DNA of 64,000 bases, taken from IMG/VR virus record IMGVR_UViG_3300035501_000524, one strand, 5' to 3'. Made by a program: the position numbers and the translations under genes. The notes under the pieces were generated by a model. It ran no database searches, was not told where the DNA came from, and saw only the letters and a program-made list of their open reading frames with translations. The stretch comes from a virus. Its lineage: Duplodnaviria > Heunggongvirae > Uroviricota > Caudoviricetes. Of this stretch, positions 5,318 to 7,745 are shown one piece after another (position 1 is the first letter of the stretch; the number at the start of each line of letters is the position of its first letter).

Positions 5318-5569
5318 TTAGCTCCTTTTGGATTTTAAAAATTCATTTGCTTCATATTCTGATGGAGATATTACGTCGACTGATTTGACAAGAGTGTCAA
5401 AATTCACTATAATATAATTATTTGGAAAAACCTCAGACCATATGTCTACGCATTTTTTGATAGTGTCAAGATCATTTTCTTCTCCTGAATAAAAGGTAAG
5501 TACAATAACATCACCTTTATTTACATTTATTTTGTTTGTTTTATATATCAACGTTTGCCCTCCATGCAT
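5318..5569 (-). CDS. hypothetical protein (83 aa)
   Basis: ORF track, operonic position. Confidence 0.45.
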   Translation of the reverse strand: MHGGQTLIYKTNKINVNKGDVIVLTFYSGEENDLDTIKKCVDIWSEVFPNNYIIVNFDTLVKSVDVISPSEYEANEFLKSKRS

Positions 5570-5930
5570 TTTCAGTAATGAACTGCTTACGTGGGGTTAC
5601 TGATTCACCCATAAGGCTAATAAAAGTATTTGCTACTTCAGCTACATCTCCCATAGTAATCTTTTTAAGAGTTCTAGTTTCTGGATTCATTACAGTTTCT
5701 GCCATTTCATGGGCATCCATCTCACCTAGACCTTTCATTCGGCCTAGTTCAAAAGATTTTGTAGCTGATTTTCTGAATTCTGCAAGAGCTGCATCATCTT
5801 TTAAATACTGAATTTTTGTACCCTGAGTAATTTTATAAAGTGGAGGCACTGCCGCATAAATATATCCTTTTTCAATTAATTCTGGCGCAAATTTCCAGAT
5901 AAAAGTTAAGAATAAAATACGAATATGTGA
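5541..5930 (-). CDS. type II topoisomerase B subunit (GyrB/ParE/T4 gp39+gp60-like), exon 2 (C-terminal part)
   Basis: translation [10 protein letters not shown]...[18 protein letters not shown]...RMKGLGEM matches the GyrB C-terminal conserved blocks. It continues precisely from DADVDG at the end of exon 1. Confidence 0.75.
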   Translation of the reverse strand, partial: [129 protein letters not shown]

Positions 5931-6212
5931 CATCTATTAGGACTGACTATCTTTTACTTTCTTAATAAGAAAGGAAACCATTTCCCCTTTTAACAGTCTT
6001 CGTTTCCTAAAAACTGAGTGCGTATCAATAGCACCGGTACTCCCCCGCCCAGAAGGCCTAGGGGATAGTCGATACAGGTTCAAATATTATCTTATAAATA
6101 ATATAAGTTTCCCACGGGATTGAGTATATAACCTTTCCCCGTTAGCATTAAATTTCTACTAAATTTAATACCCGCCTGATAAAGCGAAAAGTTTTTCATT
6201 GGCCCACATTTG
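5931..6212 (-). other. group-I-like self-splicing intron interrupting the topoisomerase B gene
   Basis: 282 nt separating DADVDG | SHIR. Last exon-1 nt is U. Intron nt 8-13 (GGGCCA) can pair with exon end UGGU (P1 with U.G). Candidate P7 pairing GACTATC...GATAGTC near the 3' end. Intron ends in G (ATG). Region is GC-richer than surroundings. Confidence 0.55.
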
Positions 6213-7745
6213 ACCATCTACATCTGCATCAGCAGTAATAATAATTTTTCCATATCGTAATTTTGATTCATCAACAATTACTTTTCCATCTTTAATTTCC
6301 AATCCAAAAGCATCAATCATTGCATTGATCTCTTGGTTTCCAAGAGCCTTATGAAGATCAACTTTAAGTGTGTTAAGGATTTTACCTCTTACTGGCAATA
6401 CTGCTTGAGTTCCTCTATCACGAGCTTCCTTTGTAGTGCCTGCAGCAGATTTTCCTTCTACAATAAAGACTTCACATTCAGAACGTTTTTTAGAACTTGC
6501 ATCTGCCAAAGTTCCAGGTAATACAGTTCTCTTTTTAGCATCCTGTTTACGAACTGTCTCTTTTGCTTTTTTAGCTTTTTCTCTAGCCGCTCGTGCTAAT
6601 AATGCTTTTTCAATAATTGCTTTTGCATCATTCGGATGTGAATCAAGCCAAATTTTAATCTCTTTAGAAGTTAATCTTTGAACCATTGTTCTTGCTTCAC
6701 TACTGGAAAGGACTTCCTTTGTCTGACCAGAAAATACTGGATCTGGCATAATAAAAGAAAGAACTAAAACTAATCCTTCTTTTAGTTCATCGCCAGATAT
6801 ATTAGCATCTTTCTCTTTAAGAAGCTTCTTCTCTCTAGCATACTCATTAATTGTCTGTGTGAGCGCAGTTCTAAAACCTGTAAGATGTGTTCCACCAGTA
6901 TTCGGAATTGAGTTTGTAAACAACTTATATGTATCAGAATAAGTTGTATTATAAACCATTGCCATTTTTACGCCAATTCTATCTTCACTACTTTCCGCAT
7001 AAAAAGTAGAAGTTATTGTTTGTTTATTCTTATTTAAATCTTCAATATAATCAAGGATTCCATTCTTTGATACAATAATCTCTTCTGGTTTATCTTTATA
7101 AGTTAATTTAAAAGTTAACCCAGGAGAAAGATAAGCTAATTCTTGTAACTGATTTCTTAAAGAATCATAGGAAATATCAATTCCTTCTTTAAAAATCTCT
7201 GGATCTGGTCTAAACTGAATGGAAGTTCCATGATCATCTTTTCGCCAATCCTCAGTTTTGAATTTTACAAGTTGTCCCTTTTTAAAAGATGCTAAAGCAA
7301 GTTTTCCATCTCTTGCTGAACTTACACTAAATAATTCAGAAAGAGCATTAGTCGCTTTTGCTCCAACACCATTCATTCCTCCAGATGTATTATATCCAGT
7401 TTTTCCAGAACTATCAAATTTTGCTCCTGTATGAAGCTTTGTGTAAATATTTACAAGTGTTTCAGATCCATCTTCTGCTTCTCCAAAAGGAACTCCTCTA
7501 CCATTATCAGTAATAACAATAAATTCTCCTTTATCAAGATCACCCACTTGAACTTTACATTCAGTACAAAATCCATTCAAATATTCATCTACTGCATTTG
7601 AGATAATTTCAAGAGTAATATGTCTAACTCCTTCTGGACCAACTGAACCGATATACATTCCTGGTCTAAGTCGAATAGCTTCAATGCCTTCAAGAGTTTT
7701 AATATCCTCTACACCATAATTCATTTTAGTTTCTTTATCTGCCAT
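6213..7745 (-). CDS. type II topoisomerase B subunit, exon 1 (ATPase + Toprim start)
   Basis: GHKL ATPase motifs (ITLEIISNAVDE, GGMNGVG), Toprim EGKSAAG and [11 protein letters not shown]. The ORF-track tail QMWANEKLFALSGGY* (6165-6212) is intron read-through. Confidence 0.85.

What the first reader, a model, noticed from the sequence alone, without database searches (positions are those of the whole stretch)
5541..7745. Group-I-like intron splitting the topoisomerase II B-subunit gene exactly inside the [10 protein letters not shown] motif
Upstream ORF ends ...[11 protein letters not shown] plus 15 unrelated residues. Downstream ORF begins (M)[10 protein letters not shown], which is the canonical continuation (GyrB [9 protein letters not shown]). 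The 282-nt intervening sequence (5931-6212) starts after an exon-terminal U, has a 5'-proximal GGGCCA able to pair with exon UGGU (P1 with U.G), a candidate P7 pairing GACTATC/GATAGTC, and ends in G. It is GC-richer than the flanks. A short ORF-less group I ribozyme is the simplest explanation. Introns in phage topoisomerase genes are rare (T4 gene 60 uses translational bypass instead), which makes this a notable solution to the same split-gene problem.
Basis: partly seen in the sequence, partly recalled or inferred. Interest (0 to 1): 0.72.

Follow-up and report, generated by a model that had tools for sequence, protein, structure and literature searches.

The report
Small self-splicing intron in phage gyrB
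A 282-base group I intron with no gene of its own, related to the phage T4 td intron, interrupts the gyrase/topoisomerase B-subunit gene of an uncultivated large phage inside a catalytic motif; this is a clear but ordinary example of a well-known kind of mobile element.

Summary
On the minus strand, a GyrB/ParE-like gene is split into 7745..6213 and 5930..5541 by 282 nt (6212..5931). Joining the two parts restores ...[10 protein letters not shown]... and a 640-aa protein colinear with E. coli GyrB.

- Relatives with 95.7% nucleotide identity lack exactly these 282 nt.
- Another phage (L018, also in two human-gut contigs) has a homologous intron at the same site, 1090 nt long, with a GIY-YIG endonuclease gene.
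- The insert belongs to a family found in more than 119 IMG/VR loci. Covariation supports its P3, P4, P6 and P7.2 helices (91% paired against 65% in shuffles, 0/500).
- It shares core sequence blocks with the T4 td intron.
- A continuous 10-nt guide pairs with both exon ends (P1 with a U.G pair, plus P10), and the last base is G.

Three corrections. The gene is on the minus strand. Rfam's group I model does not reach threshold (16.6 against 50 bits), here or at the 17 family copies scanned. Introns in this topoisomerase motif are not rare in metagenomic phages.

This copy has no endonuclease gene and lacks the P9 hairpin that 82 of 86 relatives keep, so splicing is inferred, not shown. Verdict: a new member of a known kind, of modest interest.

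The parts
6213..7745 (-). gyrB exon 1 (511 codons, ends GAT GTA GAT GGT = DVDG). The last four bases UGGU (6216..6213) are the exon strand of P1, and the terminal U forms the U.G pair.
   Evidence: ORF list and translation. Pfam HATPase_c, DNA_gyraseB, Toprim. Shine-Dalgarno GGAGGA upstream of the ATG at 7745.
5931..6212 (-). Group I intron, 282 nt, td-like (IA2-like), with no endonuclease ORF and no P9 hairpin. The terminal G is at 5931.
   Evidence: Absent from relatives L002/L003 with 95.7% nucleotide identity. Family HMM hits: 3' half 114.7 bits (E 1e-34), 5' half 45 bits (E 2e-13). Full-length but sub-threshold Rfam Intron_gpI alignment.
5541..5930 (-). gyrB exon 2 (129 codons plus stop, begins TCA CAT ATT CGT = SHIR). 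Its first six bases UCACAU (5930..5925) are the exon strand of P10.
   Evidence: Translation and colinear alignment with GyrB. Pfam DNA_gyraseB_C. No Shine-Dalgarno motif before the in-frame ATG at 5933..5931, which is the intron's own 3' end.
6200..6209 (-). Internal guide sequence AUGUGG|GCCA (intron nt 4-13). GCCA pairs with exon-1 UGGU (P1) and AUGUGG pairs with exon-2 UCACAU (P10).
   Evidence: Read directly from the sequence. Such a guide occurs in 219 of 200,000 shuffles and nowhere else in the intron. L018 has the identical guide.
6165..6167 (-). In-frame UAA that ends the exon-1 reading frame 15 codons into the intron (intron nt 46-48).
   Evidence: Translation.
6190..6194 (-). P3 5' strand AAACU (intron 19-23). 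It pairs with GGUUU at 5975..5979.
   Evidence: Family covariation: the middle pair is A-U, C-G or G-C in the closest relatives. P3 is 87% paired against 62% for shuffled partners. See also helix 1.
6147..6186 (-). Two hairpins between P3 and P4: hairpin A CGCU-UUAUCA-GGCG (6186..6173) and hairpin B (6169..6147), followed by GCUAA. td has its P2 hairpin before P3 instead.
   Evidence: Both are recovered by the MFE fold. Both are conserved in position across the family with differing stem sequences. Compared with T4 td.
6114..6142 (-). P4-P5-P4' (ACGGGG ... UCCCGU with a short P5 hairpin GGU-UAUAU-ACU).
   Evidence: AACGGGGAA and CAATCCCGTG are identical to T4 td. P4 is 100% paired with G-C to A-U and G-C to U-A exchanges in the family.
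6076..6113 (-). P6 (GGG with CCU) enclosing the short P6a hairpin. In relatives, the loop here holds the endonuclease ORF of about 750 nt.
   Evidence: P6 is 100% paired with compensatory changes at all three pairs. ORF position shown in L018 and in Enterococcus phage EF1.
6064..6070 (-). P7 5' strand GACUAUC. It pairs with GAUAGUC at 5945..5951.
   Evidence: Sequence. CGACTATCCC is identical to td. Rfam aligns these to the consensus GACUA ... AAGAUAUAGUC.
5985..6064 (-). P7.1 (6064..6043), AGUA, and a three-way P7.2 domain (6037..5985). That domain includes the hairpin CAGU[UUUUAGGAAACGAAG]ACUG.
   Evidence: Blastn similarity to intron sequence in Enterococcus phages EF1/EF5 and in Lak phages. 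The P7.2 base and P7.2b stems covary: 100% paired, and 4 of 5 positions 100% paired.
5975..5979 (-). P3 3' strand GGUUU, preceded by GAAAU (5984..5980).
5957..5973 (-). P8 hairpin CUUUCUU-AUU-AAGAAAG.
   Evidence: Sequence. A hairpin sits at this position in all family members listed.
5931..5951 (-). P7 3' strand GAUAGUC plus a 14-nt tail AGUCCUAAUAGAUG that ends in the terminal G. The P9 hairpin is missing here.
   Evidence: 82 of 86 distinct family tails have a P9 hairpin, mostly with GNRA loops. The window copy and L094 have none. L018 has GCCAAUAGUAAUAUUGG at this place.

Best explanation
The 282 nt at 6212..5931(-) are a group I intron of the T4-td-like (IA2-like) kind inserted in the phage's gyrB/parE-like gene, between the Gly and Ser codons of the Toprim motif [10 protein letters not shown].

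Proposed mechanism (inferred):
1. The gene is transcribed as one RNA and the intron folds into the P3-P8 and P4-P6 core.
2. The guide AUGUGG|GCCA holds the 5' exon end (UGGU, with a U.G wobble at the cleavage site) in P1, and the 3' exon start (UCACAU) in P10.
3. A free guanosine attacks after the U.
4. The released exon-1 3'-OH then attacks after the terminal G.
5. The exons are joined to encode a normal 640-aa B subunit.

History. The intron most likely arrived by homing from a donor like L018, whose intron at the same site carries a GIY-YIG homing endonuclease. Exon bases -7 to +2 around the junction are donor-like, while the rest of the gene resembles the intron-less relatives. The copy here no longer has an endonuclease gene, has shorter peripheral hairpins and has no P9, so it is probably no longer mobile on its own.

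Shown here: the precise insertion, homology, conserved and covarying core, guide pairing, and persistence of the allele in several samples. Inferred: that this P9-less copy still splices.
For: 1. Exact +282 nt relative to L002/L003 (99% aa, 95.7% nt identity). Six further relatives (L004-L009) are also uninterrupted.
2. L018 (IMG/VR) and the human-gut contigs L136/L146 have a homologous 1090-nt intron at the identical site, with the same guide, and with a GIY-YIG ORF (Pfam E 1.2e-11) in the P6 loop.
3. The pattern TATCGACTAT-N40-70-TAGGAAACGAAG finds more than 119 IMG/VR loci. HMMs built from them hit the window only at this insert: 114.7 bits (E 1e-34) and 45 bits (E 2e-13).
4. On 51 distinct family cores, 91.0% of cells are paired against 65.1% in shuffles (0/500), and 52-58% when the partners are slid. 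16 of 23 pairs show compensatory changes.
5. All 65 family columns conserved at 95% or more are kept in the window copy. 22 of these are matches by construction.
6. Core blocks are collinear and identical with the T4 td intron, which established literature (my own knowledge, not checked here) describes as self-splicing in vitro: AACGGGGAA, CAATCCCGTG, CGACTATCCC.
7. The 10-nt guide forms P1 with a U.G pair plus a 6-bp P10; this occurs in 219 of 200,000 shuffles. The last base is G.
8. A short donor-like tract at the junction (GTA GAT GGT|TCA, against GTT GAT GGA AGT in L002) includes a TCA/AGT serine codon switch.
9. 31 of 37 ORFs in the window have a Shine-Dalgarno motif. The in-frame ATG before exon 2 has none, and the intron ends I read finish in ACG or AUG, so this AUG looks like a family feature.
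10. The identical intron-bearing allele is present on 11 contigs; the three read come from three samples, so the phage carrying it persists.
Against: - Rfam Intron_gpI reaches only 16.6 bits against a gathering score of 50. None of the family copies in a scan of 17 family loci reached that score either.
- This copy lacks the P9 hairpin present in 82 of 86 relatives. Its P5 lacks the receptor-like CUAA...AUG motif of most relatives. A tertiary contact that usually stabilises the fold is therefore missing.
- P3 is only 5 bp here, against 7 bp in many relatives.
- The exon-1 reading frame runs 15 codons into the intron, through the guide, P3 and hairpin A, so ribosomes could interfere with folding.
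- The fold energy is only modestly better than shuffles (z = -1.77).
- There is no RNA evidence.
Confidence: 0.85

Rival explanations
1. The insert is a decayed, splicing-dead relic of such an intron. Either the gene is inactivated, or it is expressed as two polypeptides (526 aa and 130 aa) that assemble non-covalently, in the way T4 splits its topoisomerase between gp39 and gp60.
For: The endonuclease gene and P9 are gone, and P3 and P5 are reduced. An in-frame ATG sits immediately before exon 2. Phages are known to tolerate split topoisomerase and ribonucleotide reductase genes (PMC3045599, listed, describes a fragmented nrdA; the abstract of bioRxiv 10.1101/2022.08.31.505936 in the same list describes the 50-nt gene 60 bypass).
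Against: - None of the 65 family columns conserved at 95% or more has changed, although 22 are matches by construction. Every covarying helix is still formed.
- The P1 and P10 guide is intact, and the exon bases it needs are present.
- There is no Shine-Dalgarno motif before the ATG, while 31 of 37 ORFs have one. The AUG matches the ACG/AUG ends of the family members I read.
- The break would fall inside the metal-binding DxDxD motif of the Toprim domain.
- Another family member (L094) also lacks P9.
- The allele persists unchanged on 11 contigs; the three read come from three samples.
Confidence: 0.12
2. The gap is crossed at the translation level (gene 60-type ribosomal bypass), or the insert is another kind of element such as a group II intron, an intein, an insertion sequence or an assembly chimera.
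For: T4 gene 60 bridges a gap in a topoisomerase gene by bypassing (background knowledge; the abstract of bioRxiv 10.1101/2022.08.31.505936 appears).
Against: - The gap is 282 nt, not about 50.
- I saw no GGU landing codon next to exon 2 that would match the GGU take-off codon (sequence; this was not checked systematically).
- At 282 nt, with stop codons in the frame shared by the two exons (UAA at nt 46-48, then UAG UAG), it cannot be an intein, and it is far shorter than a typical group II intron (background knowledge).
- The sequence matches a covarying group I family.
- The identical insert is assembled independently in the three samples read, which rules out a chimera.
Confidence: 0.01

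Closest known systems
Phage T4 td intron (group I, subgroup IA2, encodes the GIY-YIG endonuclease I-TevI)
   Same: - The core order is the same from P4 onward, and these blocks are identical: AACGGGGAA (P4), CAATCCCGTG (P4'), CGACTATCCC (P7 and the start of P7.1). GGGGAGUA, GAAAY before P3', and AGAUA(UA)GUC (J8/7 and P7') also match.
- P7.1 and P7.2 lie between P7 and P3'.
- Relatives of the window intron carry a GIY-YIG gene in the P6 region. In T4 the I-TevI gene likewise lies inside the intron, downstream of these 5' core blocks.
- The host gene is a DNA-metabolism enzyme, and the insertion lies in a codon block for a conserved catalytic motif.
   Different: - The window copy is 282 nt with no ORF; td is 1016 nt.
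- There is no P2 hairpin between P1 and P3. Instead, two hairpins lie between P3 and P4.
- P7.2 is a three-way domain with a conserved 15-nt loop, UUUUAGGAAACGAAG.
- There is no P9, P9.1 or P9.2.
- The exon-1 frame stops 15 codons into the intron rather than at its first codon.
- Overall sequence similarity is limited to the core blocks.
The intron at the same gyrB site in IMG/VR contig IMGVR_UViG_3300045988_117476 (L018) and in the human-gut contigs L136 and L146
   Same: Identical insertion point (GATGGT|...|TCACAT), identical guide CAAAUGUGGGCCA, the same subfamily of P7.1 and P7.2 sequences, and a host gyrB that looks about 80% identical from the exon translations (not computed).
   Different: L018 is 1090 nt. 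It has a 236-aa GIY-YIG ORF in P6a, a longer hairpin B, a longer P8 and a P9 hairpin with a GUAA loop. The window copy lacks the ORF and P9.
Introns splitting genes in Enterococcus phages EF1/EF5 (Herelleviridae-like, 142 kb)
   Same: 74% identity over intron nt 133-233. The order of P4-P6, P7, P7.1 and P7.2 is the same, and a GIY-YIG-like ORF lies in P6.
   Different: The host gene is different (a region of split DNA polymerase III alpha pieces). That intron contains an ORF and has a P9 hairpin.
Group I introns of gut jumbo (Jug) phages, PMC12880540
   Same: Short group I introns (about 206 nt on average) interrupt essential genes of large gut phages. Metatranscriptome reads support splicing for 37 of 76 of them.
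   Different: Those examples are in terL, nrdD and DNA polymerase of phages that infect Bacteroides. The paper reports no gyrB case, and I did not test relatedness to the window phage.

Membership tests
Group I intron (general) | P1 helix formed by the 5' exon end and an internal guide, with a U.G wobble at the cleavage site | tested here: met
   Exon UGGU pairs with intron GCCA (nt 10-13): U-A, G-C, G-C and the terminal U.G. L018 is identical.
Group I intron (general) | Terminal G at the 3' end, and P10 pairing of the 3' exon with the guide next to P1 | tested here: met
   The last base, 5931, is G. UCACAU pairs with AUGUGG over 6 bp directly next to P1. A 10-nt guide of this kind occurs in 219 of 200,000 shuffles.
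Group I intron (general) | Conserved core: P4-P5-P6 stack, P3/P8, P7, and J8/7 | tested here: met
   Covariation in P3, P4 and P6 on 51 family cores: 91% paired against 65% in shuffles, 0/500. P7 and J8/7 align to the Rfam consensus and match td.
Group I intron (general) | Score at or above the Rfam RF00028 gathering threshold | tested here: not met
   16.6 bits against 50. None of the family copies in a scan of 17 family loci reached the threshold either, although other introns in those same loci did. The model is therefore insensitive to this family.
Group I intron (general) | Guanosine-dependent self-splicing | not testable with these tools
   This needs in-vitro transcription with GTP and Mg2+, or RNA reads across the junction.
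Subgroup IA2 (T4 td-like) | P7.1 and P7.2 inserted between P7 and P3' | tested here: met
   P7.1 lies at 6064..6043 and the P7.2 domain at 6037..5985. Its base and one branch covary.
Subgroup IA2 (T4 td-like) | P2 hairpin between P1 and P3, and P9 (with P9.0, P9.1, P9.2) at the 3' end, as in td | tested here: not met
   P3's 5' strand follows P1 after about 5 nt, and two hairpins lie between P3 and P4 instead. P9 is absent in this copy but present in 82 of 86 relatives.
Mobile (homing) intron | Intron-encoded homing endonuclease, and intron-less alleles that offer a target | tested here: inconclusive
   Intron-less alleles exist, and the L018 homologue encodes a GIY-YIG protein. The window copy has no endonuclease ORF: its 41-aa and 48-aa ORFs have no Pfam hit. 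No endonuclease gene lies within 3 kb. A donor-like tract at the junction suggests past homing.

The most novel reading that the evidence does not exclude
The window copy may be a naturally minimised td-like ribozyme (282 nt, no endonuclease gene, no P2, no P9) that still splices, choosing its 3' splice site with only P10 and the terminal G. It would come from a lineage that lost the P9 loop and the receptor-like P5 together. In addition, the whole family has an arrangement that I did not find described: P3 follows P1 directly, and two hairpins sit between P3 and P4. If both points hold, this family would be a distinct architectural variant of IA2, and the window copy its smallest working form.
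Probability: 0.35. Interest if true: 0.5.

Novelty: new member of a known kind. Interest (0 to 1): 0.35.

Why it matters
- **Annotation.** Two ORFs (526 and 130 aa) should be annotated as one 640-aa GyrB/ParE-like subunit. The standard Rfam scan misses this whole intron family, so similar split genes in phage metagenomes are probably being mis-annotated.
- **Target choice.** The codons for the Toprim DxDxDG motif of type IIA topoisomerases turn out to be a recurrent target of homing introns in gut phages: two insertion sites 7 nt apart, in different gyrB lineages. This fits the general rule that homing endonucleases target invariant catalytic motifs.
- **Life cycle of a mobile intron.** Intron-less alleles, an allele with the endonuclease gene, and the stripped-down allele here together give a tidy snapshot of invasion, a donor-like tract at the junction, and loss of the endonuclease gene.
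- **RNA structure.** The absence of P9, together with a simplified P5, offers a natural test of how dispensable the L9-P5 contact is.

None of this changes current understanding, so the interest is moderate.

Tried and rejected
- **Rfam Intron_gpI.** The hit here is sub-threshold, and a gathering-score scan of 17 family loci reported none of the family copies. I therefore rejected it as a criterion rather than as evidence against.
- **Similarity to known phages.** A blastn of the whole gene region against INPHARED found only short hits in Enterococcus phages. A tblastn of the spliced GyrB found nothing above 44.5% identity, so the phage has no cultured relative in that collection.
- **P3 anchoring.** My first two rules for locating the 5' strand of P3 were poor and were replaced by an anchor on hairpin A. 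A few sequences remain mis-anchored (L026, L049, L101, L123, L127).
- **Thermodynamic folding.** Folding alone recovers the local hairpins, but it cannot show the P3/P7 pseudoknot, and the z-score is only -1.77.
- **5' junction pattern in metagenomes.** The scan returned mostly chance matches in unrelated genes. Only L136 and L146 were real.
- **P5 receptor and P9 loop.** My regex for a receptor-like P5 was too strict, so the link between P5 type and P9 loop type is only suggestive.
- **Literature.** Searches for a described gyrB or topoisomerase group I intron in phages found none among the top-ranked papers I opened. A search for 'P3.1/P3.2' nomenclature found nothing relevant.
- **Alternatives rejected.** Translational bypass, intein, group II intron and assembly chimera; the reasons are given under the rival explanations.
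Full report
**What is there.** All genes in this part of the window are on the minus strand. ORF 7745..6165(-) encodes 526 aa ending ...[11 protein letters not shown] followed by QMWANEKLFALSGGY and a stop. ORF 5933..5541(-) begins [11 protein letters not shown]. 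Removing 6212..5931 (282 nt) joins GAT GGT to TCA CAT in frame: both exons are multiples of three, 1533 and 390 nt. The joined product is 640 aa with HATPase_c, DNA_gyraseB, Toprim and GyrB C-terminal domains. It aligns without a gap across [21 protein letters not shown] with E. coli GyrB [21 protein letters not shown]. The GC excess is marginal: 37.6% against 33-35%.

**It is a discrete insertion.** A search of IMG/VR with the spliced protein found eight relatives, all with an uninterrupted gene. Two of them (L002, L003) are 99% identical in protein and 95.7% in DNA. Against them the window has exactly 282 extra bases.

**The same intron sits at the same site elsewhere, with an endonuclease gene.**
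- IMG/VR contig L018, and the human-gut contigs L136 and L146, carry a gyrB that looks about 80% identical from the exon translations (not computed). It is interrupted at the identical position (GATGGT|CAAATGTGGGCC ... AATAAATG|TCACAT) by a 1090-nt homologue.
- The P6 loop of that homologue encodes a GIY-YIG protein (Pfam E 1.2e-11).
- Around the junction, the window's exon bases -7 to +2 (GTA GAT GGT|TCA) match L018, while the rest of the gene follows the intron-less L002 type (GTT GAT GGA AGT). This includes a TCA/AGT serine codon switch.
- That pattern is what a short co-conversion tract from homing would leave. The same bases are also what P1 and P10 need.

**It belongs to a large td-like family.**
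- Blastn of the insert hit intron sequence in Enterococcus phages EF1/EF5 (74% over nt 133-233) and in Lak phages.
- A pattern taken from two conserved blocks (TATCGACTAT-N40-70-TAGGAAACGAAG) found more than 119 IMG/VR loci. About half carry an ORF of roughly 750 nt in P6.
- HMMs built from these loci hit the window only at the insert: 114.7 bits (E 1e-34) for the 3' half and 45 bits (E 2e-13) for the 5' half.
- I retrieved the T4 td intron (1016 nt). It shares collinear, identical core blocks: AACGGGGAA, CAATCCCGTG and CGACTATCCC.
- Rfam's Intron_gpI aligns full-length to the insert and picks out P4-P6, GACUA and AAGA-UAGUC. It scores only 16.6 bits against a gathering score of 50. It reported none of the family copies in a scan of 17 family loci, although it detected other introns in those same loci. 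That threshold is therefore uninformative here.

**Structure and covariation.** I anchored each helix on conserved flanking motifs rather than on complementarity.
- P3 is 87% paired against 62% for shuffled partners (maximum 72% in 2000 shuffles).
- P4, P6 and the base of P7.2 are 100% paired, each with several pair types. Four of the five positions of the P7.2b stem are always paired.
- On a gap-free concatenation of these strands from 51 distinct introns, 91.0% of cells pair against 65.1% in shuffles (0/500), and 52-58% when the partners are slid. 16 of 23 pairs show compensatory changes.
- The window copy forms every one of these helices. Its P3 is 5 bp (AAACU with GGUUU), and the middle pair is A-U, C-G or G-C among its closest relatives.
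- It keeps all 65 columns that are at least 95% conserved in the family. 22 of these are matches by construction.
- Intron nt 4-13 (AUGUGG|GCCA) form one continuous guide. GCCA pairs with exon-1 UGGU (P1, with the terminal U.G), and AUGUGG pairs with exon-2 UCACAU (P10). Such a guide appears in 0.11% of shuffles.

**What is unusual about this copy.**
- It has no endonuclease ORF. The 41-aa and 48-aa ORFs inside it have no Pfam hit, and no endonuclease gene lies within 3 kb.
- It lacks the P9 hairpin that 82 of 86 distinct relatives have, mostly with GNRA loops. After P7' there are only 14 nt, AGUCCUAAUAGAUG. One other member, L094, is also P9-less.
- Its P5 is a plain short hairpin without the CUAA...AUG receptor-like motif seen in most relatives with a GAAA loop on P9 (suggestive only).
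- At the family level, P3's 5' strand follows P1 directly, and two hairpins lie between P3 and P4. td instead has P2 before P3. I could not find this arrangement named in the papers I searched.

**Does it splice?** This is inferred, not shown.
- In favour: an intact invariant core and intact guide. There is no Shine-Dalgarno motif before the in-frame AUG, whereas 31 of 37 ORFs have one, and the intron ends I read finish in ACG or AUG, so this AUG looks like a family feature. The break lies inside the catalytic DxDxD motif. The identical allele is found on 11 contigs; the three read come from three samples.
- Against: the loss of P9, a short P3, and an exon-1 frame that runs 15 codons into the intron.
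- I put about 0.85 on a working intron and about 0.12 on a dead relic with a split or inactive gene.

**Context and novelty.** The phage is uncultivated. Its best GyrB match in INPHARED is 44.5%. It carries about 24 tRNA genes. Its relatives are contigs of up to about 190 kb. Group I introns in phage DNA-metabolism genes are well known, and gut jumbo phages carry them by the dozen, with RNA support for many (PMC12880540). I found no paper describing one in a phage gyrB. Even so, the metagenomic data here show this site occupied in another phage lineage (L018, L136, L146), and a second site 7 nt upstream (GACGT|TGATGG) occupied in other GyrB-like genes (L024, L034). This is a new member of a known kind, with a few structural oddities worth a ribozyme specialist's attention.

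Noticed in passing
window 31952..32074 (-): Rfam calls a 123-nt tRNA here (34.9 bits) that ARAGORN does not. It reads as a type II tRNA-Tyr (anticodon loop CUGUAAA, long variable arm) with about 41 extra bases just 5' of the anticodon stem. The stem's 5' strand appears twice (CCGGA ... CUGGA). It could be a tRNA with a small insertion or intron, or a pseudogene. A normal tRNA-Tyr lies at 46884..46968.
   Followed up: partly
window 31873..47125 (-): There is an array of about 21-24 tRNA genes, all on the minus strand. It includes two weak Rfam-only hits (38904..38966 and 37304..37373) and a long (89-nt) tRNA-Ile(UAU) at 39934..40022.
   Followed up: no
L024 and L034 (IMG/VR), about 1.1 kb upstream of the pattern match: Other GyrB-like genes (...IIIMSDADV|DGAHIKNLFY...) carry an intron of the same subfamily, with an ORF, inserted 7 nt upstream of the window's site (GACGT|TGATGG). 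The Toprim DxDxDG codons have therefore been invaded at two or more positions.
   Followed up: partly
L094, L043, L096 (IMG/VR): In these loci, introns of this family appear to interrupt a GIY-YIG endonuclease gene itself (...GIYKITNQKDNMCYIGQAV | RFSQKME...). That would be an intron nested in a homing-endonuclease gene. L094's copy also lacks P9.
   Followed up: no
L019, L021, L035, L041, L053 (IMG/VR), 3' exon starts: Several family members share an insertion site in a gene whose 3' exon begins HDYIHTS(L/I). I did not identify the host gene.
   Followed up: no
family-wide; window 6147..6194 (-): In this intron family, P3's 5' strand follows P1 directly, and two hairpins lie between P3 and P4. 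T4 td instead has P2 before P3. The conserved 15-nt loop UUUUAGGAAACGAAG of P7.2b contains GGAAA, which is complementary to the conserved UUUCC that follows P3. This could be a tertiary pairing, but I did not test it.
   Followed up: partly
window 8391..10109 (-): A 572-aa protein with Phage_lysozyme2 and SH3 domains (as annotated for the identical gene in L129) has two long poly-threonine linkers.
   Followed up: no
L016 2225..2460 and 4864..5085; L099 2145..2369: Phage contigs that carry this intron family also hold other group I introns that do pass Rfam's threshold (52-99 bits). These phages therefore carry several kinds of intron.
   Followed up: no
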